Shown: piece after piece, positions 9,021 through 59,202 of the stretch
How positions within the stretch are numbered: the stretch's first letter is position 1
Layout of the letters: every line of letters starts with the position of its first letter
Source: Paraphysomonas bandaiensis
Lineage: Eukaryota > Protista > Chrysophyceae
Length of the DNA: 64,000 nt
Reading direction: 5' to 3'
NCBI GenBank assembly: GCA_965644295.1
Contig: CBFFRP010000080.1
Coordinates: 248,001 to 312,000 of the forward strand
Notes under the pieces: model-generated
Told to the model about the DNA's origin: nothing
Seen by the model: the letters and a program-made list of their open reading frames with translations, nothing else
Databases searched by the model: none
Made by a program: the position numbers and the translations under genes

Positions 9021-9089
9021 GAACGGTTGCGTACAGAAACTAGTTTATGTCTATAGACTAGCTAATAACTAGATTTGCTATATACTACT

Positions 9090-13360: not shown

Positions 13361-14210
13361 ATGTACGCGAGAGCAGCGACGCAAAGTGATGTGTATGATT
13401 TACTGGAACTTGAGAGGTGTTGTTGGGCAACACACCTTCAAGCCACTGAACAAACCATTCGAAACAGGATAACTCGCAACCCTTATGGCCAGTTCGTTGT
13501 TGTAATTAATGATACACTATGCGGTGCTCTGTATACACAAACCATTTTGAGTTCTAAAGAATTAGTTTCCGGAAAATTTGAGAACCAAGAAGATCTCCAC
13601 AACGAGAGAGGAACCACACTTCAACTGCTTGCTATTGCGGTGCAGAGTGTCAGCACAGGAAATCCTGCGGCGTTTTTACGTGATTATGCTCTTCAAGTAG
13701 CCAGAGATGATGCCAAAATCACAACTGTTGTTGCTATGACACGGTGCAGTGCGTACGCACAACAGAGTACAGGTGACTACAACAGATATGTGTTAAGCTG
13801 TAAGGATCCAACTATATTTTTCCATGTTTCTGGTGGTGCTACGATTGAGCAAATTGTTGAGAACTACCGTCCTGAAGATCGTGCTAATCTGGGCAGTGCA
13901 ATTTTGATACGTTATTCTTTGGATGCTTGCGTCAATGCGCCCACCTCTGGGGCATTTCCCGAGAAGTCTGAGGAATTTAGTGCTCCAATAGCGAGCACTC
14001 TTCTTGAAGATATCTGCAAGAAGCTTATCGAAATAAATCCACAGTGTGCATTTGTTAATGATCTTGGCGGAACTCCACTGATGACTGTAATCGACTCGCT
14101 CCAAGTTCTTGTTCTACACAGTTGGTTGGAGACAAGGTTGAGCCGTGACCTCTCACCAACATTTCTCTTTAATTATACCACACCGAAGAGCATTATTAAC
14201 GGCATATATG
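13361..14210 (+). other. PKS loading module: GNAT-like domain + ACP0
   Basis: VVAMTRC, DPTIFFHVSGGA and NYRPEDRANLGSAILIRY match CurA/SxtA-type GNAT-like initiation domains (conserved Thr and His). ACP: IDSL...LSPTFLFNYTTP. Confidence 0.88.
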
Positions 14211-17200
14211 GATCACCAGTTGCATCTGAAATATCGTACCAATCTTCTTCTGAGCCATTGGCAATTATTGGTACCTCATGCAAATTTCCTGGTGAAATAA
14301 ACTCTCTGCATGATATGTGGCGGAATATTGTCTCGAAAGCATGTGCCTCATCTGAAGTCCCATTTGATCGGTGGGACTTAAACGCTTTAGATTTAGAGAA
14401 ACATGGACTCGATCCCAGCCGTCAAAGTTGTGTAAATTTGGGATCTTTTTTGTCCTCAGTCGCACAATTCGATCCTACTTTTTTCGGTATGGGCCAAAGC
14501 GAGGCAGAAAACGTGGATCCACATCAGAGACTTGTTTTAGAAATGGCTGTTCGTGCACTTGCGGATAGTAATATGTCACGAGATAAGTTAGAAGGGCAGT
14601 GTGTGGGAGTATGGGTTGGTATGTCGGGTACTGATGTTAATTCGTTGCCTGGTTGTGGACTGAATGAAAATCACACCGTCTACTCTGCAACTGGATCGTC
14701 TGTTGCTGTGACAGCTGGGAGATTGTCATATCTCTTGGGATTACGTGGACCGGCCATGGTGGTTGATACGGCATGTTCCTCTTCACTAGTTGCACTAAAT
14801 CAGGCTTGTGAGGCTCTCCGAACGGGGAAGTGTAATGCTGCTGTCGTCTCTGCTGTAAATCTCATTTTGACACCATGGACATCTGTTGCGTATGCACGGG
14901 CAGGAATGACATCGCCGGATGGCAAGTGCCACACCTTTGATGAATCCGCCAACGGATACTGCAGAGCTGAAGGATGTGGTGCCTTAGTGTTGAAACGATT
15001 GAGTGATGCAGAACGAGATAATGATGGTATTTATGCAGTTGTTCGAGGGTCGGCAGTGATGCAGGACGGTAAGAGTGCTAGTTTGACAGCCCCCAATGGT
15101 CTTGCCCAGGAGCAGCTTCTTCGTGCGGCATTATCAGATGCTGGAGTGGATGCTGGTGATGTATCTCTTATTGAGGCTCATGGGACTGGGACGAAATTAG
15201 GTGATCCTATTGAGACGGAGGCTTTATCGTCGGTATATGGTCATGGGCGGAGTGAAGAGAATACATTGTATGTTTCGAGTGTAAAAGCGAATATCGGTCA
15301 TATGGAGGCAGCAGCTGGTATAGGAGGTATATTGTCAGCGATATTGGCACTTCATTATAAGCAAGCTCCTCCAAATGCCCAGCTGCGTGAGCTGAATTCG
15401 AAGGTGGCAGCATCTGTGTCAGGCAGTCCAATTTCGTTTCCCACGGAACCTACACCCTTGGTTCGACATGGGGATCGTCCTTTGTTAGCTGGAGTGAGTT
15501 CATTTGGTTATAGCGGCACAATATCTCATGTGATATTGGAAGAAGCTCCCCTCTCTCACTCCCGCTCGCCTGGTGTACTTTCTAGTAGCAAATCCTCCTC
15601 CACTGTATTGTCGGAAACATGTATAGCGGGTATGGTGTGGCAGTTTGCTGGACAGGGGACACTCAGTGTTGGCGCATTGCGCGATATGTATGAGTCGGAG
15701 TCCACATTTCGTGACGCTTTGAGTCGGTGTGATGATATTCTTCGATCTCATCTGGGTGTAGGTGCATCTGAGTTATTGTATCCTGGGATCTGTGGTAGTT
15801 TGACTGAGATTAGTGCAGCGGAGCACCTTTCGGAGACTGTGTACTCTCAGCCTATACTGGTGGCTCTTGAGTATTGTCTGAGTCAGGTATGGTTGTCACG
15901 GGGTATTCGCCCAGCTGCAGTGATGGGTCACAGTCTAGGAGAGTATGCAGCTGCTATTGTCAGCGGAGTTTTGTCATTGGAGGATAGTTTGCGACTGGTG
16001 TGTATACGTGGTCGCTTGATGCAGGAGAGTGATGGATGTGTGGGTTGCATGTATGCCGTCCGAGCAACAGCTGATGAGGTAATCAGTGCAATCTCTGATT
16101 CAGGTTTGACGAACGAAGTGTCTGTGGCTGCAGTGAATGGACTTCGTAGTGTAGTAGTATCCGGGTCTGTGGATGGAGTTCAGAAAGTGTTGAACAGCAC
16201 TGGTTTGATGAATATAAGCCATCGTCAGTTGAATGTATCGAGGGCATTTCACTCTCCGTTGATGGCAGATATTATTTCTGCTTATGAGAAGGAGCTGCTA
16301 TTAGTACAGTTTAATCATCCGACGGTTAAGTTTGTGTCTACTGTGACGGGACATTATGCGGATGAGGAGTTAATATCATCGTCATATTGGTTGAAGCATA
16401 TATTGCAGCCAGTGTTGTATGAGTCAGCAGTGGAGGTATGTTATAGTGGAGAGAGTCGTGATGGCACCTGTGTGTTTGTTGAGATGGGAGCGAATTCTAC
16501 ATTGAGCCGTTTAGTTCGAGTTAATCGTTTTAACATTGAATGTCTTAATGGGTTTGATATAATTGATATTTCAGCGAAGTACTGTTGGGGTTACCGACCT
16601 CGATATGTTCGTTATAAGCATCCGAATCACCGCGTTTTCCATGATAGCACTATATCTTTACGTGATAAAAGTATATGCTTCTACGGAAATATAACTGGTT
16701 TTCATATTAAAGAGGGTGCTAAATGTTTCCGGAGTTCTGGTGTTTTAGAAGCTGTAACCAGTGCCTTTATTTTGAACACTTTTTCGAAGTTGAACTCTGA
16801 TAATGTCTTCGTATCTTTAATTAATGTAAAGTTTACGCAGCATCGATTTCAGAAAGAGCGCGTTAGCACGGTTGTCTGCGAACTGAATACTTCATCTGAG
16901 TTTTTGCTCTATGCGGCGACTGATAACGATATGTACGAGATTTCAAGTGGCAGTGTTGGACTTAAGAAGCAGTTTGCTACACTCCCGTGTACGAGAGATC
17001 GTAATGGCCTTGACCTTAGCTTTCTCTCCCCATTGGAATTGCGAAGTTTTTCTGATGCTTTTGTCACGCTGAGTACGTTTGAATTTAACGAGGTTTCATT
17101 CCAGAGCACTTTTCGTAATGTTGCAGTTTCCGAAGAGCCAGGCTTCTCGCTTCATCCTGTTATATTCGAAGCAGCATTTCGAAGTTGCACAGCCCATATG

Positions 17201-20200
17201 ACAAAACTTAATATGCACGACGTATGGATATCATACTGTGAGGAAGTTGTGATCAATGGGAATCGCGATTTCCTTCCACTACAATGTAGTAAGTTTTATT
17301 GTCATGGAGTTGTCAAGTCAAGAACTTTGACTAGTGTTGTATATGATATCTTTGTGTGGAATTCACATGGAGATTTTCTCACAACTTTGAGAGGTTTAAC
17401 TGTAGTTCGTAGTGCCACAATTTCAGATCTGTTGTACCTGAACAGTTCCCTCGTTGAGTGTAAGTTTTTGCCTTTATCAAATGACTTAATTGGTATTAGT
17501 ACTCTTGGAATTTTTGGTTTTGAGGGCTTGAGTGTTGGCGTGAAAGAAATTTTAGAAACGGTATATTCGAGCGTGCATATTGAAATGCATGAATTAAGTG
17601 ATATTACGAACAAAACAGCATTGGATAGCTGTGATGCTTGTGTGATTCTACTCGACAAACTGTCCTGTGGAGATATTCGTCATTGTTTAAATATTTTGGA
17701 GGCCGCTTATATGACGTCTTCACCGCGGTTTCTATTTCTTACAGTCAACGCATTATGCAAAGAAATTGAGCCTTTTTCCTCTTTTTATGCTACATTTGCT
17801 GGTGCTGCTCGATGCGCACAATTGGAAAATCGTGAGGCCAAAATATCTGTTGTAGATATGTACTGTACTGGGCAAATTGTCGAAAGTGCAAGCAAAGTCA
17901 TTATAAACGAGCTGCCACTTCTTGGCTCCGAAATGGAGGTAGCATATTGCAACGATTTGCGTAATGTTAGGAGATATGCGCCACTCGATATATCAACTAC
18001 AGGATATATACGCCTATCATGCAGCGAGGATGTCGATCAAGGTACATATATTATTACAGGTGGGTTAGGTGGACTTGGACTATTGACTGCAAGGGTATTA
18101 GCTAGTCATGGTGCGTCTAGATTAGTACTTTTATCTCGATCTGGCAAGGTATCATATACCGGCCAGGGTCTGGAGTTGGAATTGGAGTGGCTTCGGGAGT
18201 CTTCTGGCAGTGAGGTTCATGTGATGTGTTGCGACGTATCTGACGAGTCTTCTGTAGTGGATATGTTGCGAGAGGTTCGTGAGATGGGTGGGGGTATTCG
18301 GGGAATCATTCATGCAGCAGGAGTACTTCGTGATGCGTTGATTCGTGGGGGTGGTGCGGCATCTGGTTGTGCTGATGTGTGGGCATCTAAGGCGCACAGT
18401 GCGTGGTTATTACACAAGCACACGTTGGAGGATTCCCTTTCAACATTTGTTGTATATTCGTCAATCGTATCCGCTATCGGAAATATTGGTCAATCTGCTT
18501 ATGGTGCCGCAAATAGTTATTTGGATGGACTTGTAGAGTATCGTGTTCGTAACGGTTTACCTGGTGTTAGTATTCGGTGGCCGGCGGTTACTGGAGTTGG
18601 TATGGCGGCAGCAACGGGTGTTGATGGCGTAGGTATTACAATTGGGTCATCATCCGTTGAGAATGTATTGAAATGTTTGGTGCTAAGTAATCGTGCCGTT
18701 GAGGGTGTTATCACTATAGCTCCCCATGGTATGAAGGATTGGATGTCTGACAGTATTAAACAACAGTTTTCAAATGTTAGATTGCTTCAACCAGTGCAGA
18801 CTAATACATCTATGGCCGTAACTGGGTCGTCAACTAGGCCCCGAATAAGATCTATTGTCTGTGAGCGGTCTATTGAGGATGTGGTGTATACCGTTCGTAG
18901 TATAGTAGAATCGTTACTAGAAGTCTCCGGCGTCTCCGAAACTGACCAAGTGATGGACATGGGACTGGATTCTCTAGCTGTCACTGAGTTAGCCAGTAAG
19001 TTAGCATCTGAGTTTGGGGTTCGTGTTCTTCCGACGTTGGTGTTTAATTATCCTACACTACGGGATATAACAGGACATATTATAGATCTCCTGGGACTGT
19101 CAGAGTCCATCACAACCACGGAATCACCTGGGTGTCTGCCTCCATATGAGGGAAGGGGAAACAGTGACATGGCCATCATTGGTGTAAGTTGTCGCCTTCC
19201 TGGTGATATTAATGATCTTGAGTCCATGTGGAGCATGTTATGTGGGCGCTGCGACATGACAAGCGAAGTATCACCGTATCGCTGGGACACAGATGGATTG
19301 ATGGCACGTAGTTCACTGGCGGATCCAAGTATATTAAACCGTGTTCGATATGGTGGTTTCTTGTCTGATGAAGTTTTGGAAAGCTTTGATGCATCGTTGT
19401 TTGGAATTTCTGACGCAGAGGCCATGCATATGGATCCTCGTCATAGATTGTTATTGGAAAGCAGTTACGAGGCTCTGGTGGATGCAGGGTATAATGTTTC
19501 TGAGCTGAAAGGAAAGAAAGTTGGGGTTTTCGTCGGGATATCTGGCTTACCAGATAATGACACATCTGATCATCGAAAATCTTTCTCTGTCTATGATGCT
19601 ACTGGAAAGGCGTTGTCCGTAGCAAGTGGAAGAATATCTTATGCATTTGGATTGCAAGGTCCTTGCTGGACCGTAGATACAGCTTGTTCGTCATCAATTG
19701 TGGCTATTCACTCTGCTAGAAGAAGTCTTCAGTTGAAGGAATGTGAGGTGGCAATTGTAGGAACCGCAACGGCACTGACATCTGAATTGAGTATTGCATG
19801 TGCTATGGCTGGCATGACATCGCCTGATGGCAAGTGCTACACCTTTGACGAGTCAGCCAACGGATACTGCAGAGCGGAAGGATGTGGTACCTTAGTGTTG
19901 AAACGATTGAGTGATGCAGAACGAGATAATGATGGTATTTATGCAGTTGTACGAGGGTCGGCAGTGATGCAGGACGGTAAGAGTGCTAGTTTGACAGCCC
20001 CCAATGGTCTTGCCCAGGAGCAGCTTCTTCGTGCGGCATTATCAGATGCCGGTGTGGATGCTGGTGATGTATCTCTTATTGAGGCTCATGGGACTGGGAC
20101 GAAACTAGGTGATCCTATTGAGACGGAGGCTTTATCGTCGGTATATGGTCATGGACGAAGTGAAGAGAATACATTGTATGTTTCTGGTGTAAAAGCGAAT

Positions 20201-23200
20201 ATCGGTCACATGGAGGCAGCAGCTGGTATAGGAGGTATATTGTCAGCGATATTGGCACTTCATTATAAGCAAGCTCCTCCAAATGCCCAGCTGCGTGAGC
20301 TGAACTCGAAGGTGGCAGCATCTGTGTCAGGCAGTCCAATTTCGTTTCCCACGGAACCTACTCCATTGGTTCGACATGGGGATCGTCCTTTGTTAGCTGG
20401 AGTGAGTTCATTTGGTTATAGCGGCACAATATCTCATGTGATATTGGAAGAAGCTCCCATCTCTCACTCCCGCTCGCCTGGTGTACTTTCTAGTAGCAAA
20501 TCCTCCTCCACTGTATTGTCGGAAACATGTATAGCGGGTATGGTGTGGCAATTTGCTGGACAGGGGACACTCAGTGTTGGCGCATTGCGCGATATGTATG
20601 AGTCGGAGTCCACATTTCGTGACGCTTTGAGTCGGTGTGATGATATTCTTCGATCTCATCTGGGTGTAGGTGCATCTGAGTTATTGTATCCTGGGATCTG
20701 TGGTAGTTTGACTGAGATTAGTGCAGCGGAGCACCTTTCGGAGACTGTGTACTCTCAGCCTATACTGGTGGCTCTTGAGTATTGTCTGAGTCAGGTATGG
20801 TTGTCACGGGGTATTCGCCCAGCTGCAGTGATGGGTCACAGTCTAGGAGAGTATGCAGCTGCTATTGTCAGCGGAGTTTTGTCATTGGAGGATAGTTTGC
20901 GACTGGTGTGTATACGTGGTCGCTTGATGCAGGAGAGTGATGGATGTGTGGGTTGCATGTATGCCGTCCGAGCAACAGCTGATGAGGTAATCAGTGCAAT
21001 CTCTGATTCAGGTTTGACGAACGAAGTGTCTGTGGCTGCAGTGAATGGACCTCGTAGTGTGGTAATATCCGGGTCTGTGGATGGAGTTCAGAAAGTGTTG
21101 AACAGCACTGGTTTGATGAATATGAGTCATCGTCAGTTGAATGTATCGAGGGCATTTCACTCTCCGTTGATGGCAGATATTATTTCTGCTTATGAGAAGG
21201 AGCTGCTATTAGTACAGTTTAATCATCCGACGGTTAAGTTTGTGTCTACTGTGACGGGACATTATGCGGATGAGGAGTTAATATCATCGTCATATTGGTT
21301 GAAGCATATATTGCAGCCAGTGTTGTATGAGTCAGCAGTGGAGGTATGTTATAGTGGAGAGAGTCGTGATGGCACCTGTGTGTTTGTTGAGATGGGAGCG
21401 GATTCTACATTGAGCCGTATTGGAGCATCTGCTATTCGTAAAGTTTTGGTGGATACATCTTGTTGTAGTTGGTTACACGGTATGAGTGTTGAGAACTTTT
21501 CAGCTTCTGGATTTAACAAGTTGTTTTCTCATAAACGGTTCCGGCTGAGGAAATTTTATCATCGTTTACTTGATTGTGCTGTTACTAGTTTGTTATCCAG
21601 TGCGACGGAGATGCACACTATCCTACACGGTGGGATCATAAATGAATGGTTAGGTCAACATGTGGTCCGTGGAGACATTGTGCTACCGGGTGCAGCAATG
21701 ATAGATATGGGCCTTGCTGTGGCATTGAGACAGCGTGTTGTTCATCAGAGCACTTATTCTGACGTGGTACTTCACTTGGAAGCGTTCAGTGTCACTCGAC
21801 CTCTCATTGTAGTTGACAGCAGTGCGTCTTCTACGTCCCCAACTGAGATGTGGTGTGTACATAGGGATGATAATAATATTCAGTGGCAAAGTTGTTTGGA
21901 TGGAAATAATGTAGAATTGAATGCTCAGTGTTCTGTAAATACTGTAAAAAATGGGGTACCAGTGGAGTGGCATGAATTAGAGAAGAAACTGATTGCACTA
22001 CGTGAAATTTGCAACCACGAACTCAACGTTTCTCAGCTGTACGCACGATTTGTTGACAGTGGTTTGTGTTATGGGCCTAAGTTTCAACTAGTAACGTCCT
22101 TGCATTGTGATACTGATGGGAAGAATGTTATCTCTCGATTGTCAATCGGGGATGTCAGTATGACTAGTTTATATTTGTTGCCGCCTCCATTTTTGGATGC
22201 CGTGCTACAGTCTGCTGTGGCAGCTAATATGTTTAGAGGTATCGAAGAGATGCAAGTACCATATGCCATCGACAATGTATGGTTGCGATGTGATGGATTA
22301 GCATCTCTGTGGGCAGCCGAGTGGTGTGAGGTCCATGTCGAGGCTCGCAGCATCACATCTGAGATGTCGATATTCGACCTGTATTTGTTTAGTGGGTCTG
22401 GTGAAGCTGTTTTAGTTGTAAATGGGTTGCGATGTGTTAGTTTTTCCGGAGGCTTGATGGATTCATGCAATTTGTTCTTGCATCGGTGGACTCCCTCAGT
22501 TTCTCCTTGCATTGATGGGGTTGCATTACATCATGTGTTGATTCTTGGTGACCCCGCTATGGGGAATATGTTGGGTCATGCACTGAATGAATATACCACT
22601 GTTGGTGCGATTGACATGGCTGCAAAAGATAATGTGAAGAACTATGACTTGGTTATTTTACAAGCTGGTGGTGATGCTGAACATGGCGATAGTGGTAGGA
22701 TGGTTACAAAACTTTTAGCCGAACTGGAATGGCTATGTACTCGCACATCTCGTGTTTTAATTTTATCTTATTCAAATGCATCAAGTACCCAAATTAATGC
22801 ATTTAGAAACACTGCTTGCACTTTGTCCGGTATAGTGAAATGTCTTCAATTGGAATGCCCTTTTCTGAAAATGTCTGTTGTAAACGTTGAACCTTATGTT
22901 GCGCTCTCTCAATCCAGTGAATCTGTCCACGAAAATGATACATCATTGTCTTATGCGCAAAGGGTGTTCTCTGCTTTGCAGAATGAGATATCTATAATGG
23001 ACGATGAGATGGAAGTTAAGTATCGTGATGGTGTGCGTATGATGAAGCGCTACGAGCCACTAGATTTACCTGCTATCAATACTGGTGACAATCGCAATGT
23101 GGAGGGAGGTACATTCATCATAACCGGTGGGTTAGGTGGACTTGGACTATTGACTGCAAGGGTATTAGCTAGTCATGGTGCGTCTAGATTAGTACTTTTA

Positions 23201-41200: not shown

Positions 41201-44200
41201 GAAGAAGTTGATGTGGCTACTATTTATGATCGCCCTGATTGCGTACAACTTGGACAATCCTTTCGTCTACTTCACAGTGTTCATGTTTCTGACTGCAAGT
41301 CCCGCGCTTTTGCAGTCATCAATGTTCCTGACAAACTAATGTGGTCAACATATCTGCTTCCACCCCCATTTATTGAGGCTATGTTTTTAGCGTCTACCTG
41401 TATACTTCCTAACTGTGTTGGTGTTGTCAGTATTGTTGATAAATGGTGGGTGAGTTGCGAGAATATACATAAGTTGTGGGCCCACGGCACTTGTTTCCTG
41501 TATATTACCTGTTCTCGTTTAGCTGATAATGATACTGTGATCAATTTTTGTCTTTTCTGTGGTAACGATATATCACTTGTATCTGCTGAATATGTAGTTT
41601 CCATGCGCCGTGATGTCGACTTAATTGTCACCGAGAAAAGGGATCATGTGTCTGTCCCATCACATCTTTACAAGAAAAATGCTACTTCTGTGACATCTAG
41701 AATATATGATATAGTTAAGAGTATGGTAGACTGCAGCGATTTTGATCGTGACGCACACTTAATGGATTTGGGATTGGACTCCCTCAGCGTTACTGAGCTA
41801 GCAACCCAGTTGTCGAATGAATTTAAATTGAAACTTTCCCCTACGTTGGTATTTAGCTATCCAACTATTGATGATATCACTGGCCACATTCTTGAATTGC
41901 TTGGTGTTTCCGACGTAAAGGAAGAGCCAGAACGTGGACTGACCAGGACATCGAACTCTCGATTTGACAGTGGCGATATGGCTATAGTTGGTGTAAGTTG
42001 TCGATTACCTGGCGATGTGAATGATTTGAATTCAATGTGGGAAATGCTCAGTGGAGGTCGTGATGCGACAAGCGTGGTGTCTCCATCTCGCTGGGATGTG
42101 GATGCATTAATTGCACGCAGTGATTTGATGGATCCGAGTGTGTTGGATCGTGTTCGTCACGGCGGTTTTTTGTCAGATGATGTTTTGGAGGGTTTTGATG
42201 CACCTTTATTTGGAATTTCTGATGCAGAAGCCTCCCATATGGACCCTACCCACCGTTTGTTATTACAATGTGCCTACGAGGCCTTATGTGATGCAGGGTA
42301 CGATATGTCGACAATGAAAGGTCAGAAGATTGGGGTATTTGTGGGGATTTCTGGTGTGGTTTCTTCCGATTTGAAATATGATTCGGCATCTCCTGTTCTC
42401 TTTAATAATTCTCTGTCGTCCGTTTACAGTGCTACGTCATCTGCTCTGTCTGTCGCGTCTGGTCGAATATCGTATACATTAGGGTTGAATGGTCCAAACA
42501 TGTCCTTTGATACTGCCTGCTCCTCATCATTGGTAGCACTGCACTGTGCTAAACGAAGTGTTCAGTTTGATGAATGTTGCACTGCTGTTGTTTTAGGAGT
42601 GAATTGTTTGTCTGAAGCAGCGTCAGCAGCATGTGCTATGGCTGGCATGACATCGCCTGATGGCAAGTGCCACACCTTTGACGAGTCAGCCAACGGGTAC
42701 TGTAGAGCTGAGGGATGTGGTGCCTTAGTGTTGAAGCGATTGAGTGATGCAGAACGAGATAATGATGGTATTTATGCAGTTGTACGAGGGTCAGCAGTGA
42801 TGCAGGACGGTAAGAGTGCTAGTTTGACAGCCCCCAATGGTCTTGCCCAGGAGCAGCTTCTTCGTGCGGCATTATCAGATGCCGGTGTGGATGCTGGTGA
42901 TGTATCTCTTATTGAGGCTCATGGGACTGGGACGAAACTAGGTGATCCTATTGAGACGGAGGCTTTATCGTCGGTATATGGTCATGGGCGAAGTGAAGAG
43001 AATACATTGTATGTTTCTGGTGTAAAAGCGAATATCGGTCACATGGAGGCAGCAGCTGGTATAGGAGGTATATTGTCAGCGATATTGGCACTTCATTATA
43101 AGCAAGCTCCTCCAAATGCCCAGCTGCGTGAGCTGAACTCGAAGGTGGCAGCATCTGTGTCAGGCAGTCCAATTTCGTTTCCCACGGAACCTACTCCATT
43201 GGTTCGACATGGGGATCGTCCTTTGTTAGCTGGAGTGAGTTCATTTGGCTTCAGTGGCACAATATCTCATGTGATATTGGAGGAAAGAGTGTGTCGTGGT
43301 CATAATTTACTCTTACGGCACAGTAAATTACCTTCTAGAGGAAATACAATGAAGCGTTATAATATTCCACGATCTGTTCGAAGTTGCTTTCAGGATGCTG
43401 CATATGAGGGGTATAGCCAAAGTGTGATATTTACGATAAGTGTTGATTGCTTAGCTCTTCGTCATTTAATGTCTGATTATGAACTTGGGTCAGAAATGGT
43501 ATTACCGATGGCAGTAATTTTCGAGATATTTAGTTCCGCTGCGAGTAGGTTGGGCGGTTTTGGCAATTATGCAAGAGGACTATCTACAAGCACCCATCTT
43601 AGTGACATTAGGGTGTTATGCCCAGTTGTTGTTGAATGGTCAGATATTCAAGGAGAAAAAATTCGCAATATCACCACACTGTGGTGCGTATGTGATAAAG
43701 ACGGTGGGTTGAGTATATACAGTGACGATGGTGGATCAAGAGTGCTACATGCGCAATGCTCGATTTGGAATAGGCAGTCGTCGAGTCAGTACAGCACGGC
43801 TTTCCCTGAAATACACTCAGCCGGCTTGCGTAATATCGATACTGCTACGGTGTACAAAAAGCACACAGAAAATGGGTTTCGGCTTGGAAGAACATACAAA
43901 CTGTTGGAGAGTATACAGGTCTCCAATTGTAGGTCCCGCGCTTTTGCAGTCATCAATGTTCCTGACAAACTAATGTGGTCAACATATCTGCTTCCACCCC
44001 CATTTATTGAGGCTATGTTTTTAGCGTCATCTGTTTTGTTCTCTGAATTTGATGGGTCAACAGGAGAAAGTATGGGCGACATGAAAGTACCTGGCGAAGT
44101 TGATAAGCTGTGGGTTATATCTGACAATATTGGTAGTTTATGGAATCAAAACTTTTGCGAGGTGTATATGGAACGTCAAAGTAATCGAAATGGTGTAGTT

Positions 44201-47200
44201 GTAAACTTCACTGTATTAAATAAAGAAGGGTCAGCTATATTGTGTGCTGAAGGCGTTGTTATGAGAAATATGGCAGAATTTAGTGGTGGTGCTCCAGACA
44301 ACACTTCCACAGCCATATTACAGAGCCAGTGGAAATTTTCTGGACCAGTTAATACTACGCCTTGCTCTATACCATCATGTTTGTTTGTTGGACCAGGTGA
44401 GACATGTACAGCAATTATAGATGTTCTAAATAGCAGCAATTTCACAATGGATATCGCTGACCATGTTAGCATCGGGCCCAATAACGTTTCTCTTATTATT
44501 CAAAACGACAAGAAGTACAATATGGCTGTTGTTGTTGTTGAAGGCATCGTTGCTTGTGATTCTATCGCAACGTCATACGACCCCATGAATGCTCTTCATT
44601 TAAAGGCTTGGCTTGAAGCTATTGAAATTTTGTGCGGAAGAACGAAGAATTTGATAGTTTTGTCTACGGTAGGAAATGAAGGCGATAACGTTTTGTACAA
44701 CACGCTAATTGGTGCAGTACGATGCGCTCAGTTAGAATATCCAGCAGTGCATATAGTGGTTATTGATATCGATTCATCGATTTCTGATGTGGAAGGCATG
44801 TGTGCTGCTTTGCAGAATGAGATATCTATAATGGATGGTGAGATGGAAGTTAAGTATCGTGATGGTGTGCGTATGGTGAAGCGCTACGAGCCATTAGATT
44901 TACCTGTTACCAATACTGGTGACAATCGCAATGTGGAGGGAGGTACATTCATCATAACCGGTGGGTTAGGTGGACTTGGACTATTGACTGCAAGGGTATT
45001 AGCTAGTCATGGTGCGTCTAGATTAGTACTTTTATCTCGATCTGGCAAGGTATCATATACCGGCCAGGGTCTGGAGTTGGAATTGGAGTGGCTTCGGGAA
45101 TCTTCTGGCAGTGAGGTTCATGTGATGTGTTGCGACGTATCTGACGAGTCTTCTGTAGTGGATATGTTGCGAGAGGTTCGTGAGATGGGTGGGGGTATTC
45201 GGGGAATCATTCATGCAGCAGGAGTACTTCGTGATGCGTTGATTCGTGGGGGTGGTGCGGCATCTGGTTGTGCTGATGTGTGGGCATCTAAGGCGCACAG
45301 TGCGTGGTTATTACACAAGCACACGTTGGAGGATACGCTTACAACATTTGTTGTATATTCATCGATTGCATCTGCTTTTGGTACTGTTGGGCAGGCCTCG
45401 TATTCGATGGCCAATGGATATCTGGATGATTTAATTTGTTTTCGAAGGCGTCATGGAATGTGTGGTGTTAGTATTCGGTGGCCGCCTGTGTCCTCTGTTG
45501 GTATGGCTGTACACGTTGGTGTGGCAACGGATGAAGCAAGTATTGATGCCGAGTATTTGCAAACGTTTGTTAGGAAGGTTCTTGATTCGAATTGTTCTCT
45601 TTCTGTTGTGACCTTATTGCCACATGGTCTTTTAGACTGGGTTGGGGAAGATCTGCGTACTCAACTTGAAGGAGTCAGCCAACCACAAGTGGTTACTAAG
45701 AAATCAGCAGCTCGAAACCCGAGCTCCAACCAAGGTATTACGAAAGAAGATGTTTTGAAAAAAGTGAGAAGCATTGTAATACAATTGGTGGAAAATTCTG
45801 ACGCCACCGACAGCAGCCAGCTCATGGACTACGGTTTAGATTCACTTGGAGTGACTGAACTTTCAACTCAATTAGCCAGTCAATTTCAAATTAAATTGCC
45901 TCCAACCTTGGTATTTAGCTATCCAACTATTGATGATATCACTGGCCACATTCTTGAATTGCTTGGTGTTTCCGACGTAAAGGAAGAGCCAGAACGTGGA
46001 CTGACCAGGACATCGAACTCTCGATTTGACAGTGGCGATATGGCTATAGTTGGTGTAAGTTGTCGATTACCTGGCGATGTGAATGATTTGAATTCAATGT
46101 GGGAAATGCTCAGTGGAGGTCGTGATGCGACAAGCGTGGTGTCTCCATCTCGCTGGGATGTGGATGCATTAATTGCACGCAGTGATTTGATGGATCCGAG
46201 TGTGTTGGATCGTGTTCGTCACGGCGGTTTTTTGTCAGATGATGTTTTGGAGGGTTTTGATGCACCTTTATTTGGAATTTCTGATGCAGAAGCCTCCCAT
46301 ATGGACCCTACCCACCGTTTGTTATTACAATGTGCCTACGAGGCCTTATGTGATGCAGGGTACGATATGTCGACAATGAAAGGTCAGAAGATTGGGGTAT
46401 TTGTGGGGGTATCTGGTTCTGTGTTCCGAGATAGCAATGGAAGTACATCCTGTGCGGTACACTCAAAACCCTCAGTGTATGATGCCACAGGATCGACTCT
46501 ATCTGTCGCAGCTGGTCGAATATCATATGTTTTGGCCTTGCAAGGTCCATGTGTTGCATTCGACACCGCTTGCTCATCTTCTCTAGTAGCATTGCACTAT
46601 GCCAAGCGAAGTATGCAGCACAGAGAGTGCGATGTGGTAATAGTTATGGGAGTCAATTTCTTGACAAAGCATTCGTCTCTGGCGTGTGCTATGGCTGGCA
46701 TGACATCGCCTGATGGCAAGTGCCACACCTTTGACGAGTCAGCCAACGGGTACTGTAGAGCTGAAGGATGTGGTGCCTTAGTGTTGAAGCGATTGAGTGA
46801 TGCTGAACGAGATAATGATGGTATTTATGCAGTTGTACGAGGGTCAGCAGTGATGCAGGACGGTAAGAGTGCTAGTTTGACAGCCCCCAATGGTCTTGCC
46901 CAGGAGCAGCTTCTTCGTGCGGCATTATCAGATGCTGGAGTGGATGCTGGTGATGTATCTCTTATTGAGGCTCACGGGACTGGGACGAAACTAGGTGATC
47001 CTATTGAGACGGAGGCTTTATCGTCGGTATATGGTCATGGGCGAAGTGAAGAGAATACATTGTATGTTTCTGGTGTAAAAGCGAATATCGGTCACATGGA
47101 GGCAGCAGCTGGTATAGGAGGTATATTGTCAGCGATATTGGCACTTCATTATAAGCAAGCTCCTCCGAATGCCCAGCTGCGTGAGCTGAACTCGAAGGTG

Positions 47201-50200
47201 GCAGCATCTGTGTCAGGCAGTCCAATTTCGTTTCCCACGGAACCTACTCCATTGGTTCGACATGGGGATCGTCCTTTGTTAGCTGGAGTGAGTTCATTTG
47301 GTTACAGCGGCACAATATCTCATGTGATATTGGAAGAAGCTCCCATCTCTCACTCCCGCTCGCCTGGTGTACTTTCTAGTAGCAAATCCTCCTCCACTGT
47401 ATTGTCGGAAACATGTATAGCGGGTATGGTGTGGCAATTTGCTGGACAGGGGACACTCAGTGTTGGCGCATTGCGCGATATGTATGAGTCGGAATCTACG
47501 TTTCGTGACGCTTTGAGTCGGTGTGATGATATTCTTCGATCTCATCTGGGTGTAGGTGCATCTGAGTTATTGTATCCTGGGATCTGTGGTAGTTTGACTG
47601 AGATTAGTGCAGCGGAGCACCTTTCGGAGACTGTGTACTCTCAGCCTATACTAGTGGCTCTTGAGTATTGTCTGAGTCAGGTGTGGTTGTCACGGGGTAT
47701 TCGCCCAGCTGCAGTGATGGGTCACAGTCTAGGAGAGTATGCAGCTGCTATTGTCAGCGGAGTTTTGTCATTGGAGGATAGTTTGCGACTGGTGTGTATA
47801 CGTGGTCGCTTGATGCAGGAGAGTGATGGATGTGTGGGTTGCATGTATGCCGTCCGAGCAACAGCTGATGAGGTAATCAGTGCAATCTCTGATTCAGGTT
47901 TGACGAACGAAGTGTCTGTGGCTGCAGTGAATGGACCTCGTAGTGTGGTAATATCCGGGTCTGTGGATGGAGTTCAGAAAGTGTTGAACAGCACTGGTTT
48001 GATGAATATGAGTCATCGTCAGTTGAATGTATCGAGGGCATTTCACTCTCCGTTGATGGCAGATATTATTTCTGCTTATGAGAAGGAGCTGTTATTAGTA
48101 CAGTTTAATCATCCGACGGTTAAGTTTGTGTCTACTGTGACAGGACATTATGCGGATGAGGAGTTAATATCATCGTCATATTGGTTGAAGCATATATTGC
48201 AGCCAGTGTTGTATGAGTCAGCAGTGGAGGTATGTTATAGTGGAGAGAGTCGTGATGGCACCTGTGTGTTTGTTGAGATGGGAGCGGATTCTACATTGAG
48301 CCGAATGGGTCAAAATATCTCTCGAAGTTCTAAAGTCCAGTGGAAATCTGGGAATGAGCCTTTTGGTTGTACTTCTGAAGAGAGTTTGATGACTGCATTC
48401 AATGTTTGTAAGAAGTCGAAGATGTATTGCAGTTATGAACGAAGCCATGCGCTCTTACAAGATACCAAAATTGATCCAATATCTGGGGATATTGTATATA
48501 CCATAGCATTACATGAGGGTATACTTTCGAGTTGGCTATCGGATCACGTATTGCATGATGCTATTGTTTTGCCTGGAGCTGCCATTGTTGAAATAATGAG
48601 TTCTGCCCTGATGTTTTGCAGCGACAACAAGCATACTGATGTCATTTCCCTAGAAGGAGTCACTGTGGTGCGCCCTGTGGTTGTGAGTAACACTAGAGAC
48701 GCTACTGGAAGGCTAAACGCAACCACACTTTGGTGTGTATGTAGCAAAGAGAATGGAATCGTCAGCATGAATTTATTCAGTATGGAAAGTGGCACTCGAG
48801 TGCTGCATGCACGGGGAACTGCTGAAACAGCAGGAAAAGGTCAACCTTTACCGCTTCAGAAGGTGCTGTTGGCGTTTGATACTTTAAAGTCGCAGTGCTC
48901 TGTTGAAATTGATGTTAACCGTGCCTACAACAATATTTCGAAGGAAGGTTTGAAATTCGGACCGAGCTTCAAAATTTTACAAAGAGCACATATTTCCAAA
49001 GACATGTCGAGTGCAATTGCTGTGTTAAATATATCGAATATATCTCTTTCTAACTACCTGCTTCCACCACCAATTATTGACGCCATGCTGCAAACAGGAT
49101 TTACTTTGTCCGTTGTTGGCAGTCATGATGAAAACAGCGAGGACACGGCACGTATTCCGTATTCTTTCGATCATGTGTGGATACTGCATGATGTTATCAA
49201 GGAAACGCGTGGTACTAGTACTTGTTTTGCCTATGTTCAAACAGTCAAAACTGATAGAAGTACAAGTATATGTAATTATGCCCTTGTTAACGAGAACGGG
49301 CACGTAATGCTGTATGCCGAAGGCGTTTATTGTAGACGTTCGAACTCCAATATTCAGCAAGGAAACGAAACGAGTTCAGTGCTACAGTATAAGTGGACTA
49401 AATCACCTGATATTTTATTGGATACGGTGGTTGATTTGGGAGGTGAAAAAAAGCTACTGCTAGTGGGAAGTGAAAGAATTTTTTCCGTATTGATGGAAAA
49501 GGAGTGGTGGAGTGGCCATGACAACACTTTCGTGGAATTATCTTCCCTCTTGCAAGAGCCTGGGAGTATTGGTAGTGCTTCATATGACAAGATATTTGTT
49601 GTAGGCGATGAGTGTTGGCCTGATACCGAATATTTCTGTCAAACTCCTATGTCTGATTGGATAAAAGTCATTGAGGTGTTGTATGGGAAAGCAGAAACAA
49701 TTTTCTTTATTTTCTCGAATACTTCAGCAGCATACAGCTCTATTCTAGGCTCAATTCGATGCGCCCAGTTGGAATATTCCGGAACGAGATCTTCTTTCAT
49801 TGTAACTGATCCATCCATACCTTATGAGCGGAGCTTGTGCTCTGCTTTGCAGAATGAGATATCTATAATGGATGGTGAGATGGAAGTTAAGTATCGTGAT
49901 GGAGTGCGTATGGTGAAGCGCTACGAGCCATTAGATTTACCTGTTACCAATACTGGTGACAATCGTAATGTGGAGGGAGGTACATTCATCATAACCGGTG
50001 GGTTAGGTGGACTTGGACTATTGACTGCAAGGGTATTAGCTAGTCATGGTGCGTCTAGATTAGTACTTTTATCTCGATCTGGCAAGGTATCATATACCGG
50101 CCAGGGTCTGGAGTTGGAATTGGAGTGGCTTCGGGAATCTTCTGGCAGTGAGGTTCATGTGATGTGTTGCGACGTATCTGACGAGTCTTCTGTAGTGGAT

Positions 50201-52166
50201 ATGTTGCGAGAGGTTCGTGAGATGGGTGGGGGTATTCGGGGAATCATTCATGCAGCAGGAGTACTTCGTGATGCGTTGATTCGTGGGGGTGGTGCGGCAT
50301 CTGGTTGTGCTGATGTGTGGGCATCTAAGGCGCACAGTGCGTGGTTATTACATAAGCACACGTTGGAGGATACGCTTACAACATTTGTTGTATATTCATC
50401 GATTGCATCCGCTATCGGAAATATTGGTCAATCTGCTTATGGTGCCGCAAATAGTTATTTGGATGGACTTGTAGAGTATCGTGTTCGTAACGGTTTACCT
50501 GGTGTTAGTATTCGGTGGCCGGCGGTAACTGGAGTTGGTATGGCGGCAGCAACGGGTGCGGACATTGCTCATTTTTCGGTAGACTTACGTTTTGTTAAGA
50601 AAATTTTGGAAAACGTTTTCAACAGTCCTTTTTGTTGCTCTGGTGTTGTGACGTTGATGCCACACTCAGTATGTTGTGCACTGGATGAACCTCTGCGGAA
50701 AGAATTTTCTGAGATTGGAATTGGGTCACGAGGAGTTTCGACCGTACCCCATGATATTTCTCCTGGGTCCTTGAATATCCATAGGTGTCCTTCGAATATG
50801 TCTGATATTACCTCCAAAGTTCGCGATTTAGTTTTATCTCTTATGGGAACTGATGACATCTCCGATGATGCTGAACTGTTGGACTTTGGGTTGGATTCGT
50901 TTGGAACAATGGAAGTATCAACCCTTCTATCTTCGGAGTTTGGCGTTCGACTTCTACCGACATTAGTTTTTACTTGTCCAACAATCAAAAAAATATCTTA
51001 TTACATATCAGAGCTCATAGGGGGTGTTGAAAACGACAACGTTGATGACATATCATCGCAACCAAACAATTCAAGACCAAGCCTTTATGCGAACCATGTC
51101 AGCGGGAAGCCGCTCGCAAGTAATTCAAGATTTTCTTGCTTCTTTAGTCCATCTTCACCAGAGTAAGCTCAACTATAATGCCGATGCGACTTATTTAATT
51201 TAGTATTCGTCATACAGTTATCGTATTGTTATATTTTCTGCAGCCGGACAGATTCCATTGGCATGGCATTATTTTGCGACATGTCTGGCCCAGCGTGGGT
51301 GTGATGTGTATGTTGTACATTTACCAGGTGCGTTTTGGATGCGTTTTGGACTTATGGTGGTAGTTTATGGCTGATGTTTTTTCAGGGCGGTTTGATAGAA
51401 TGGATGAAACTCCATTTCAGAATTTTGAGAAACTAGTAGAAGGATTGTCCGAGGTATATATTCCACTTTGTATATTTCACTGTAAATGTTTTCGTGTGTA
51501 GAGTATGAAAACATCTGGCTTCCTGAACGATATTCCCCTCGCTTTCATCGGCTACTCCTTCGGTACTTATTTAGCATACGACTGCGCTCGTTACCTTTAT
51601 GACGTCTACGGTTACAAAATCGAACATATCGTGTCGATTGCTGGAATACCAGTGTGCGATCTATTGAATTTTAATGGAATTTCGGACATGCCTGGAGAAA
51701 ATGATATCGAAAAGCTTAGAAATTTGTTTCTGACAAACCATGGACACGTTCCAGACGCCTTTAACTCTAGTTCTGCGAAAGATATTGCAGGGCCGATTTT
51801 AGAAGGTTATTACTTTGAACAGTATCAAGTATTTTTTAACAATTAGACTAGATTTCAAGCTCTCTGATGAATGGACGGAAAGTATGCTGAAGCGGGAAGC
51901 AAGTGATGATGGGGGGCCGTTGGAATGTAACTTTACGTGGATACTGGGATCTGATGATCCTAGTATCGGAAAAAACTCGACCTGGGAGGTATAACCATTG
52001 ATTTTTGTCTTATGTTGTTTAGATTTTGTTGTAGACCACTGTATCTGGCGTTTACCAAAAAATTGTATACCGTGGCGATCACTTTTTTATATTCAGTAGC
52101 GATACTGTTGATAAAGATATTGCAGAAGAATGCATCAATTGTATTACGCGTTGCAAACGTGTTTAG
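13361..52166 (+). CDS. Giant modular type I polyketide synthase: GNAT-ACP, 8 extension modules, TE (~12,850 aa from ATG 13361; exons 13361-51162, 51218-51327, 51386-51453, 51502-51805, 51852-51988, 52035-52166)
   Basis: 12,601-aa ORF with 8 KS (DTACSS, EAHGTGT, NIGH), 6 AT (GHSLG, RAFHS), 8 DH-like folds, 7 KR (TGGLGGLG, YxxAN) and 9 ACP (DSL/DSF). The stop at 51164-66 overlaps donor GTAAGC. Five GT-AG introns restore a continuous frame ending TAG at 52164-66. Confidence 0.97.
14252..19095 (+). other. PKS module 1: KS-AT-DH(degenerate)-KR-ACP
   Basis: KS C-H-H intact; AT GHSLG/RAFHS. DH region has HIKEGAKCFR (no Pro) and HPVIFEAAF (Asp to Glu). KR LRD / YGAAN; ACP GLDSL. Confidence 0.88.
19163..24162 (+). 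other. PKS module 2: KS-AT-DH-KR-ACP
   Basis: DH with intact HVVRGDIVLP and DAVLQ; other catalytic motifs intact. Confidence 0.92.
24230..29214 (+). other. PKS module 3: KS-AT-DH-KR-ACP
   Basis: Near-copy of module 2 at a 5067-bp offset. Differs in the KS active-site segment and the KR structural subdomain. Confidence 0.92.
29282..33228 (+). other. PKS module 4: KS-DH(inactive)-KR-ACP, no AT
   Basis: HVILEEPG is followed within ~30 aa by YHPLL (DH start). No GHSxG. DH lacks His and has FIEAMF. Confidence 0.9.
33296..38277 (+). other. PKS module 5: KS-AT-DH(inactive)-KR-ACP
   Basis: DH motif DYKQGDNVVVP (His to Tyr) and FIEAMF (Asp to Glu). Confidence 0.9.
38345..41905 (+). other. PKS module 6: KS-AT-DH(inactive)-ACP, no KR
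   Basis: Copy of module 5 at a 5049-bp offset up to ~41390, then runs directly into ACP (LGLDSL) with no TGGLGGLG. Confidence 0.9.
41972..45965 (+). other. PKS module 7: KS-DH(inactive)-KR-ACP, no AT
   Basis: HVILEERV with no AT following. DH DYELGSEMVLP (His to Tyr). KR has a divergent catalytic loop, SAFGTVGQASYSMAN. Confidence 0.9.
46034..51020 (+). other. PKS module 8: KS-AT-DH-KR-ACP
   Basis: DH with HVLHDAIVLP and DAMLQ (both catalytic residues present); ACP FGLDSF. Confidence 0.9.
51163..52034 (+). other. Five short spliceosomal introns: 51163-51217, 51328-51385, 51454-51501, 51806-51851, 51989-52034
   Basis: All GT...AG, 46-58 nt. Phases 2,1,0,1,0 are mutually consistent and join TE motifs (e.g. 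LP-G-RFDR across the second intron). Confidence 0.85.
51218..52166 (+). other. PKS C-terminal thioesterase, encoded on five small exons
   Basis: Spliced translation: YRIVIFSAAGQIPLAW...VVHLPGRFDRMDETPF...FIGYSFG...ILGSDDP...YRGDHFF. Contains GxSxG and GxHFF, GrsT/TEII-like. Confidence 0.9.
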
Positions 52167-53896: not shown

Positions 53897-54070
53897 CACA
53901 CTAGACCTATACTGAGTCATGATGGTATTCTTTGTGTGTCGGCACCAAGCAAACTCTAGCTAGATCTACACTATACTTGCATAGCCCATATGGGATTACG
54001 AGAAACCCCACGCATTCTAGGAGAGGGGAAAGGCGGCCAATGTTACACTAGACCTATACTGAGTCATGAT
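53897..54070 (+). repeat. Partial, rearranged copy of the ~500-bp TIR element
   Basis: Contains GTATTCTTTGTGTGTCGGCACCAAGC...ACACTAGACCTATACTGAGTCAT, also at ~54178-54320. Confidence 0.85.
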
Positions 54071-54095
54071 GATATTACTCATTGCATCATACCTA

Positions 54096-59013: not shown

Positions 59014-59044
59014 AATTACAACCGCAAGCCTTGCGGTTGTAATT
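59014..59044. repeat. Perfect inverted repeat (hairpin) next to an AT-rich low-complexity tract
   Basis: AATTACAACCGCAAG-C-CTTGCGGTTGTAATT. Confidence 0.9.
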
Positions 59045-59202
59045 GGAAACTCTCGAAGAGAAGGCCCCAATGAAATGGGGTAGGGGTTAAAAAAAGGGCT
59101 TGCCTCTTTTCCCGCCTCCGTGTTTTTTTTGAACTCATTGGTATTGAGCAATGACTTGCGGTACCATTTAATTGCATTTGTTTTAATGCAGTAGAACGTC
59201 AG

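What the first reader, a model, noticed from the sequence alone, without database searches (positions are those of the whole stretch)
14252..52166. Colinear product prediction: C18 5,9,11,17-tetrahydroxy-7-oxo-2,12,14-triene, possibly an 18-membered macrolide
Seen: all ATs have GHSLG/xAFH (malonyl type). There is no ER or MT. DH catalytic His+Asp are intact only in modules 2, 3 and 8; KR is absent in module 6; all KRs have LRD (B-type-like). Inference by standard colinearity: acetyl + 8 malonyl gives 17-OH, 14E/12E diene, 11-OH, 9-OH, 7-keto, 5-OH, 2E-enoyl. The 7-keto/11-OH pair could form a pyran hemiketal as in polyene macrolides, and TE attack by 17-OH would close an 18-membered lactone (C18H26O6; free acid C18H28O7). 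DH1 retains a His, so a terminal triene is an alternative.
Basis: inference. Interest (0 to 1): 0.78.

Follow-up and report, generated by a model that had tools for sequence, protein, structure and literature searches.

The report
Eight-module algal polyketide synthase, orphan product
A marine single-celled eukaryote, likely a golden alga, carries a 12,850-residue, eight-step polyketide assembly-line gene with a spliced, transcribed 3' end, in which two steps lack their own loading domain; it is predicted to make an 18-carbon hydroxylated chain that would more likely be released as an open acid than as the large ring first proposed.

Summary
The gene (13361-52166) encodes a 12,850-aa PKS: GNAT-ACP loading, eight KS modules and a thioesterase split by five introns that RNA contigs confirm. 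Modules 4 and 7 have no AT, so 'standard colinearity' does not apply. The TE is type II-like, not the macrolactonising type. Relatives rescue the chain length: 10 of 30 family KSs lack an AT, three lie in a row in one protein, and some AT-less modules keep an intact DH, so such modules likely elongate using another module's AT. DH1 is the most decayed DH (0.4 bits against a profile of active family DHs), so the triene is unlikely. The predicted C18 skeleton holds at about 0.5. The 18-membered macrolide is about 0.14; a free acid existing as a hemiketal or 6,6-spiroketal (about 0.3) is likelier, and a delta-lactone is a further option. The proposed formulas cannot tell these apart; NMR is needed. 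The KSs fall in a eukaryote clade whose only named member is the chrysophyte Epipyxis. This is an uncharacterised variant of a known enzyme class with an unknown product.

The parts
13361..52166 (+). Whole PKS gene, 12,850 aa after splicing; exon 1 (13361-51162) is a single intron-free reading frame
13361..13930 (+). GNAT-like loading domain of the CurA/GphF type (Thr127, His155), predicted malonyl-ACP decarboxylase giving an acetyl starter
   Evidence: PDB 7UCL E 4e-32, CurA 2REE E 1e-22, GphF 6MFC E 2e-22; role from passages of PMC10127204
13988..14215 (+). Loading ACP0 (IDSL)
14255..19084 (+). Module 1: KS-AT-decayed DH-KR-ACP; predicted 17-OH
   Evidence: DH1 (16619-17416) has no Pfam DH hit and scores 0.4 bits against the family active-DH profile
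19166..24151 (+). Module 2: KS-AT-DH(His/Asp)-KR-ACP; predicted C14=C15
24233..29203 (+). Module 3: KS-AT-DH(His/Asp)-KR-ACP; predicted C12=C13
29285..33217 (+). Module 4: KS-(no AT)-inactive DH-KR-ACP; predicted 11-OH
   Evidence: KS runs directly into DH after 30589
33299..38266 (+). Module 5: KS-AT-inactive DH(Tyr/Glu)-KR-ACP; predicted 9-OH
38348..41893 (+). Module 6: KS-AT-inactive DH(Tyr/Glu)-ACP, no KR; predicted 7-oxo
   Evidence: DH6-ACP6 junction on single contigs in X1, X5, X8
41975..45955 (+). Module 7: KS-(no AT)-inactive DH(Tyr/Glu)-KR-ACP; predicted 5-OH
   Evidence: KS7-DH7 junction on single contigs in X1, X5, X8
46037..51010 (+). Module 8: KS-AT-DH(His/Asp)-KR-ACP; predicted 2E-enoyl
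51011..52166 (+). Linker and type II-like thioesterase in six exons (..51162, 51218-51327, 51386-51453, 51502-51805, 51852-51988, 52035-52166); Ser12679 (GYSFG), Asp12796/12797 (GSDDP), His12823 (GDHF)
   Evidence: five GT-AG introns predicted; all five joints seen in the 3 RNA-type runs X10, X8, X14 and not in X5; alignment

Best explanation
This is a single-chain, eight-module type I polyketide synthase with only six acyltransferases, likely from a chrysophyte, predicted to build a C18 chain (2E,12E,14E-triene, 5,9,11,17-tetrahydroxy, 7-oxo) that its type II-like thioesterase would most likely release by hydrolysis as the free acid C18H28O7. Shown: the domain order, the active-site motifs, the absence of AT4, AT7 and KR6, and splicing of the TE. 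Inferred: the GNAT domain decarboxylates malonyl-ACP0 to an acetyl starter; an embedded AT (the six are nearly identical) loads ACP4 and ACP7 across modules; DH1 and DH4-7 are silent; B-type KRs give D-hydroxyls and E-olefins; 11-OH closes on the 7-ketone to a pyran hemiketal. Because the chain is symmetric about C7 (3,5,7,9,11), the hemiketal OH could add to the 2-enoate to give an isomeric 6,6-spiroketal (chemistry recalled, untested).
For: Architecture and motifs. Module count: contig depth over segments present in 2, 3 and 4 copies was 1.8, 2.8 and 4.3 times unique depth in X1, and 1.9, 3.0 and 3.4 in X5. AT-less modules likely elongate: of 30 KSs in 14 relatives, 15 are followed by an AT, 10 by none, 1 by a degenerate AT and 4 are cut off; P0135 has three successive AT-less KS-KR-ACP modules; AT-less modules in P0139 and P0497 keep DH His+Asp. 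Precedent for one AT loading successive modules: aureothin, as stated in PMC9899208 (passages). KS5 and KS8 match beta-hydroxy acceptors at 3 of 3 diagnostic columns, which fits module 4 elongating and reducing. DH1 scores 0.4 bits against a profile of 8 family DHs chosen as active, while His-less DH4-7 score 110-164 and DH2/3/8 score 222-241. KS2 differs from the 94% identical KS3 in the gatekeeper loop (ISG versus LTG); Ser there occurs in 12 of 13 hydroxy acceptors and 0 of 4 enoyl acceptors (loop defined in PMC11321453). TE: no Asp after strand 6 (IVSIAG), Asp after strand 7, LPGR..R motif; the family TE P0122 hits human TE2, RifR, YbtT and other stand-alone thioesterases among 11 PDB sequences and type II TE clusters in the Atlas. 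Type II TEs can release final products by hydrolysis (PMC4147253, passages).
Against: No metabolite, enzyme assay or whole genome was available. KS2 is not cleanly hydroxy-type: it has Ala at the TGxT column (Thr in 11 of 13 hydroxy acceptors) and Thr at the GVN column (seen in neither class). Two of the three columns were picked after looking, and the training KSs are related, so the p-values are not real probabilities. In Epipyxis P0003 a KR-less module is also followed by a module with a dead AT, which would fit a split reducing module instead. A (omega-1)-OH recurs in 4 of 5 loading-type modules, as a macrolactonising system would need. The window's own TE exon gave no PDB hit below E 0.03, so the type II call rests on alignment and on a homologue. 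A fused type II TE can be an editing domain only (CylH, PMC5707447). Loose contig ends show further PKS genes with near-identical KS/AT/KR in the same runs, which could act in trans. The copy number of modules 2 and 3 was not checked against reads.
Confidence: 0.3

Rival explanations
1. Same C18 chain, but the TE closes 17-OH onto C1 to give the 18-membered macrolide C18H26O6.
For: Ring count and formula are correct (for mass). Module 1 with KR and a dead DH, giving a (omega-1)-OH, occurs in the window, P0004, P0010 and probably P0138; P0140 is the exception. A 2E-enoate fits a large ring. The TE classification comes from bacterial enzymes and may not predict chemistry in this lineage.
Against: The TE lacks the type I Asp and has type II hallmarks. 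None of the papers read describes a type II-like TE forming a macrolactone: CylH edits, and JerTE makes a delta-lactone.
Confidence: 0.14
2. The TE selects the hydrated 3,5-dihydroxy intermediate and closes a six-membered delta-lactone through 5-OH. This gives a 3-hydroxy lactone (C18H28O7) or, after elimination, an alpha,beta-unsaturated delta-lactone (C18H26O6) resembling the fostriecin backbone.
For: JerTE is type II-like (PMC5707447) and forms a delta-lactone (PMC12979598). Like AjuTE and JerTE, the window TE has lost the His of GHSxG (GYSFG). A DH only sets an equilibrium that a downstream enzyme pulls (PMC11321453). Fostriecin comes from a nonaketide with 9-O, 11-OH and a triene.
Against: DH8 has His+Asp and follows a B-type KR, which predicts an E-olefin that cannot sit in a six-membered ring (PMC7327777). 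Fostriecin module 8 is described as having a KR and a TE. The terminal module of P0002 also keeps an intact DH before its TE.
Confidence: 0.1
3. Module 7 does not elongate: KS7 passes the beta-keto chain to ACP7 and KR7 reduces it. The product is a C16 chain without a ketone (C16H26O6 acid), or C14 (C14H22O5) if module 4 is also a pass-through.
For: Module 7 has no AT and directly follows the KR-less module 6; Epipyxis P0003 shows a KR-less module followed by a dead-AT module. KS8's hydroxy-type signature fits this model equally well.
Against: KS7 keeps HGTGT. AT-less modules are common in the family (10 of 26 scorable KSs, plus 1 degenerate), so the pairing can be chance. AT-less modules occur three in a row and with intact DH. 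KS5 is identical to KS6 and hydroxy-type, which argues against module 4 being a pass-through.
Confidence: 0.15
4. DH1 is active through a His/Glu pair, giving a terminal 12,14,16-triene and no 17-OH.
For: A His and a Glu lie near the catalytic positions. KS2 shares GKALS with enoyl acceptors and lacks N/G/Q/H at the GVN column.
Against: No Pfam DH hit; 0.4 bits against the active-DH profile; the Hx8P proline is lost; the counterpart in P0010 has no His; the KS2 gatekeeper loop is hydroxy-type.
Confidence: 0.07
5. The fused TE only edits, or paralogous PKSs and tailoring enzymes act in trans, so the final molecule differs from any colinear reading (transfer to another acceptor, extra reduction, hand-off to a second PKS).
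For: CylH precedent; cross-module enoylreduction precedent. Contig ends reveal KS and AT variants absent from the window, and KS C-half depth is 10.9-fold in X1 against 8 copies here. Some relatives carry ER domains.
Against: The gene is self-contained from loading domain to TE, and the flanking ORFs examined (flavohaemoglobin, LRR protein) are not release or tailoring enzymes. Depth in X5 (8.4-fold) matches 8 copies.
Confidence: 0.15

Closest known systems
Bacterial cis-AT modular type I PKS (cyanobacterial and myxobacterial type)
   Same: KS-AT-DH-KR-ACP modules; malonyl-type ATs; B-type KRs; KS about 45-49% identical to bacterial KSs.
   Different: One 12,850-aa eukaryotic chain; 2 of 8 modules have no AT; intron-split type II-like TE; KS C-halves, ATs and KRs are homogenised to near identity.
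Mixed cis-/trans-AT assembly lines (122 of 8,799 in PMC10394414) and aureothin-type cross-module AT use
   Same: AT-less modules sit among AT-bearing modules.
   Different: Here AT loss is a recurrent family trait (10 of 30 KSs) in a eukaryote clade. No stand-alone AT was seen in the window, and KSs cluster by gene, not by substrate.
CurA/GphF GNAT-like decarboxylase loading modules
   Same: Sequence match E 1e-22 to 4e-32; Thr and His motifs present.
   Different: No MT or adaptor region; GNAT-ACP is fused to the whole assembly line.
In-cis type II-like TEs (CylH, AjuTE, JerTE)
   Same: C-terminal TE lacking the type I Asp, with RifR-class nearest structures (through the homologue P0122).
   Different: Signature GYSFG; encoded in six exons; activity unknown.
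Fostriecin/phoslactomycin-class nonaketides
   Same: Nonaketide with oxygen at C5, C9 and C11 and a distal polyene (the finer positional match is recalled).
   Different: 7-oxo instead of a 6-ene (recalled), no methyl branch, intact DH in module 8, predicted E geometry, no kinase or demalonylase gene seen in the window.
Other protist giant PKSs (haptophyte PKZILLA, apicomplexan CpPKS1)
   Same: Very large single-chain eukaryotic assembly lines (PKZILLA recalled; CpPKS1 from the search listing).
   Different: PKZILLAs are trans-AT and far larger (recalled); CpPKS1 ends in a reductase (listing).

Membership tests
Canonical cis-AT modular PKS | Every extension module has KS, AT and ACP | tested here: not met
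   6 ATs for 8 KSs; none in modules 4 and 7
Canonical cis-AT modular PKS | Condensation-competent KS (Cys-His-His) and ACP serine in each module | tested here: met
   8 of 8 KS and 9 of 9 ACP
Canonical cis-AT modular PKS | Product colinear with domain order | not testable with these tools
   No metabolite data
trans-AT PKS | All modules AT-less, served by a stand-alone AT | tested here: not met
   Six embedded ATs with intact motifs; a stand-alone AT elsewhere in the genome could not be sought
trans-AT PKS | KSs cluster by incoming substrate across pathways | tested here: not met
   The eight window KSs form one clade (support 0.999), away from the PksL-type KSs used as root
Macrolactonising type I PKS thioesterase | Catalytic Asp at the type I position after strand 6 | tested here: not met
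   IVSIAG in the window versus Asp in 3 of 4 bacterial C-terminal TEs aligned; criterion as used in PMC5707447, strand numbering recalled
Macrolactonising type I PKS thioesterase | N-terminal dimerisation helices (recalled feature) | tested here: inconclusive
   Only a roughly 50-aa Ser/Asn-rich linker lies between ACP8 and the TE core; the TE was not folded
Macrolactonising type I PKS thioesterase | Macrolactonisation activity | not testable with these tools
   Needs an assay
In-cis type II-like thioesterase | Ser-Asp-His triad aligns with type II TEs; nearest structures are RifR-class | tested here: met
   Ser12679, Asp12796/7 and His12823 align with P0002/P0122; P0122 hits TE2, RifR and YbtT; the window exon alone gave only Pfam Thioesterase E 4e-5 and no PDB hit below E 0.03
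In-cis type II-like thioesterase | GHSMG signature of editing TEs | tested here: not met
   GYSFG in the window; GHSMG in P0002, GHSFG in P0140
GNAT-like decarboxylase loading domain | Homology to CurA/GphF with conserved Thr and His | tested here: met
   Thr127 and His155; the catalytic role of these two residues is recalled because the primary paper was not held
Fostriecin-type unsaturated delta-lactone pathway | Terminal module with KR and an O-malonylating TE; kinase and demalonylase partners | tested here: not met
   Module 8 has an intact DH; no such partner among the three flanking ORF pieces scanned; rest of the genome not available

The most novel reading that the evidence does not exclude
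Chrysophytes carry a widespread, undescribed family of giant modular PKSs in which a few embedded, sequence-homogenised ATs load AT-less modules across the chain. This member makes a new C18 polyketide whose 3,5,7,9,11 pattern folds into a 6,6-spiroketal (or an 18-membered hemiketal macrolide), which would be the first complex polyketide traced to a gene in this algal group.
Probability: 0.25. Interest if true: 0.75.

Novelty: new variant of a known kind. Interest (0 to 1): 0.5.

Why it matters
Modular PKSs with predictable products are mostly studied in bacteria, and eukaryotic assembly lines are about 4% of those catalogued (PMC10394414, passages). This gene is complete, transcribed at its 3' end, present in marine poly(A) metatranscriptomes, and gives specific masses to look for in what appear to be single-organism datasets. 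It makes two questions testable: how AT-less modules inside an AT-bearing chain are loaded, and what a fused type II-like TE does with a long polyol-enoate. My searches (plus term searches inside two papers) found no description of such a chrysophyte assembly line or its product; a transcriptome survey reports only that type I KS domains exist in chrysophytes (PMC5029157, passages). The enzymology itself belongs to a known class.

Tried and rejected
1) No whole genome is held, so paralogues, a stand-alone AT and a PPTase could not be searched. 2) The metagenome locus scan used generic KS patterns; 0 of 77 loci carried the family KS motif, so no full-length orthologue with neighbours was obtained. 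The representative search also gave only partial family proteins. 3) Two AlphaFold models of DH1 (mean pLDDT 43 and 48) were too poor to place the His and Glu, and no fold search was run on them. 4) The KS marker YDATG to YSA/YAA for keto acceptors fits KS7 and the Epipyxis keto acceptor but also appears in two KSs downstream of a KR (P0002 KS368, P0308), so it is not used as evidence. 5) Run X16 has holes over module 6/7-specific segments at depth 4-7; this is treated as low coverage, not as a shorter gene. The 41298-43933 'joint' in X16 matches the DH5 sequence. 6) One search returned only chance-level hits, mostly to leucine-rich-repeat proteins. 7) NCBIfam gave nothing useful for the TE, GNAT or DH1. 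8) A literature search for conglobatin-type AT sharing returned 0 papers. The spiroketal search listed 7 papers; two term searches, in one of them and in a heterocycle review, gave no spiroketal passage, so the spiroketal route is recalled chemistry. 9) One of five bacterial TEs chosen for (P0222) dropped out because no motif matched. 10) Look-ups of earlier scan findings returned nothing. 11) No complex prediction was run. Supplements were not read; those of the bioRxiv chrysophyte genomics preprint could list PKS genes that its main text does not mention.

Full report
Gene and organism. The window is eukaryotic DNA with transposon-like debris, and no whole genome is held. One ORF of 12,601 codons runs 13361-51166. 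Five GT-AG introns of 46-58 nt predicted after 51162 extend it to a thioesterase ending at 52166. All five joints appear in contigs of the three RNA-type runs laid (X10, X8, X14) and in none from X5, so the 3' end is transcribed and spliced and the protein is 12,850 aa. Of 24 runs listed, 20 hold the 3' stretch or part of it, including marine poly(A) metatranscriptomes. The best-scoring named relative is from the chrysophyte Epipyxis. In a FastTree of 80 KS domains the eight window KSs are monophyletic (0.999) inside a clade (0.983) of Epipyxis, environmental sequences and one 'archaeon' bin; its sister clade holds diatom and environmental KSs. A chrysophyte host is therefore inferred, not shown.

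Checking the observation. The order is GNAT-ACP0, then KS-AT-DH*-KR-ACP, KS-AT-DH-KR-ACP twice, KS-DH0-KR-ACP, KS-AT-DH0-KR-ACP, KS-AT-DH0-ACP, KS-DH0-KR-ACP, KS-AT-DH-KR-ACP, TE. xAFH marks malonyl ATs, LDD-like motifs mark B-type KRs that give D-hydroxyls and trans olefins, and loss of the DH His abolishes activity (PMC7327777, passages). The GNAT matches the CurA and GphF loading domains, which decarboxylate malonyl-ACP to acetyl-ACP (PMC10127204, passages).

Is the module count real? The gene is highly repetitive: 77% of exon 1 has a copy at least 90% identical elsewhere in the gene, with exact repeats up to 1,632 nt. For 40500-44300, single contigs in X1, X5 and X8 span DH6-ACP6 (no KR) and KS7-DH7 (no AT). 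Depth over 2-, 3- and 4-copy segments was 1.8, 2.8 and 4.3 times unique depth in X1, and 1.9, 3.0 and 3.4 in X5, in line with the assembly for modules 4-8. The module 2/3 duplication was not tested. The fourth run, X16, was too thin to judge.

Unmentioned fact 1: two modules have no AT. In modules 4 and 7 the KS runs straight into the DH. If they only passed chains on, the product would be C16 or C14. Among 30 KSs in 14 family proteins, 15 are followed by an AT, 10 by none, 1 by a degenerate AT and 4 are truncated; several of these proteins probably come from the same genes, so the counts are not independent. P0135 has three AT-less KS-KR-ACP modules in a row, and AT-less modules in P0139 (with ER-sized spacing) and P0497 keep DH His+Asp. 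Such modules make sense only if they elongate. Precedents exist: one AT loads successive modules in aureothin biosynthesis (PMC9899208, passages), and 122 of 8,799 catalogued assembly lines mix both module types (PMC10394414, passages). Module 7 remains the weaker case, because it follows the KR-less module 6 and Epipyxis P0003 shows the same pairing with a dead AT.

KS gatekeeper comparison. Using the loop defined in PMC11321453 (first of three parts read), I sorted 29 family KSs and the 8 window KSs by upstream chemistry. Ser at loop position 2 occurs in 12 of 13 hydroxy, 0 of 4 enoyl and 3 of 4 saturated acceptors. Thr in TGxT occurs in 11 of 13, 1 of 4 and 0 of 4. N/G/Q/H at the GVN column occurs in 13 of 13, 0 of 4 and 2 of 4. 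KS5 and KS8 are hydroxy-type at all three columns; KS4 reads VMAD, recalling the VMYH enoyl motif. KS2 is hydroxy-type at the first column, enoyl-like at the second and unclassified at the third. Two columns were chosen after inspection and the sequences are related, so this is supporting evidence only.

DH1. It has no Pfam DH match and has lost the Hx8P proline. It scores 0.4 bits against a profile of eight family DHs chosen as active, whereas the His-less DH4-7 still score 110-164. Both structure predictions were too poor to use. The 17-OH reading is favoured over the triene.

Unmentioned fact 2: the TE is type II-like. The spliced TE has Ser12679, Asp12796/7 and His12823, an LPGR..R..E.P motif, and no Asp at the position where three of four aligned bacterial TEs have it. 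Its family homologue P0122 matches human TE2, RifR, YbtT and related stand-alone thioesterases and type II TE clusters. The window's central TE exon alone gave only a weak Pfam hit and no significant PDB hit. In PMC5707447 (two of four parts read) the same diagnosis marks CylH TE, an editing domain, and AjuTE and JerTE are named as type II-like. JerTE forms a delta-lactone (PMC12979598, passages, abstract and introduction). Type II TEs also release polyether products by hydrolysis (PMC4147253, passages). I found no case of macrolactonisation by such a domain in what I read. Against this, a (omega-1)-hydroxyl from module 1 recurs in 4 of 5 loading-type modules seen, which keeps the macrolide alive.

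Likely product. With an E-enoate a 5-O-lactone cannot form, so hydrolysis to C18H28O7 is the simplest outcome. The 3,5,7,9,11 pattern also allows the hemiketal OH to add to C3, giving an isomeric 6,6-spiroketal like the spongistatin AB rings (recalled; oxa-Michael and hemiacetal steps in general are covered in PMC4979870, passages). My estimates are: exact skeleton about 0.5; overall, acid/hemiketal/spiroketal 0.30, macrolide 0.14, delta-lactone 0.10, shortened chain 0.15, triene 0.07, editing TE or trans-acting partners 0.15.

Other PKS genes. Loose contig ends give AT and KS variants absent from the window, and KS C-half depth in X1 is 10.9-fold against 8 copies (8.4-fold in X5). Paralogues could supply AT or other activities in trans.

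Novelty. Paper searches for chrysophyte or stramenopile modular PKSs (listings only) and term searches in a 2026 chrysophyte genomics preprint (0 hits for polyketide or PKS in the main text) and in a phytoplankton chemistry review (0 hits for chrysophyte terms in the first 300,000 of 423,462 characters) found no description. PMC5029157 (passages) reports expressed type I KS domains in chrysophytes. PMC6164871 (passages) covers engineered cis-to-trans AT complementation. The library lacks most subscription journals, so absence from it is weak evidence. Verdict: a real, complete, orphan modular PKS that is a new variant of a known kind; the skeleton prediction is reasonable, and the macrolide is a minority outcome.

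Noticed in passing
window 13361-51162: GRINS-like signature: repeated parts of the PKS gene have GC skew 0.23 (0.32 at third codon positions) versus 0.12 (0.10) in unique parts; the C-terminal halves of the KSs, the ATs and the KR catalytic domains are nearly identical across modules, suggesting gene conversion.
   Followed up: partly
window 55051-56214 (-): Flavohaemoglobin-like gene (globin plus FAD-binding domain) with one in-frame TAG at codon 154; pseudogene, allele or assembly error.
   Followed up: partly
window 59609-61006 (-): Intron-free 465-aa leucine-rich-repeat protein with weak F-box-associated LRR hits.
   Followed up: no
window 53925-63387: A dispersed repeat of a few hundred nt in about five copies and both orientations, 89-98% identical; possibly a small non-autonomous element.
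   Followed up: partly
window 1152-10607: Short broken ORFs and fragments that read like copia-type and LINE-type retroelement remains (my reading; not scanned).
   Followed up: no
loose ends at window 40599-40617, 42644, 49979-50377: Contig ends that continue near-identical AT, KS and KR sequence into text not found at those places; two were searched and are absent from the window, indicating further PKS genes in the same runs.
   Followed up: partly
proteins P0027, P0135, P0136 (longest contig 122,648 nt): Pieces of a related, probably longer PKS with many AT-less KR-only modules, predicting a long 1,3-polyol.
   Followed up: partly
protein P0276: A family KS deposited as 'archaeon' falls inside the eukaryote clade, probably a mis-binned contig.
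   Followed up: no
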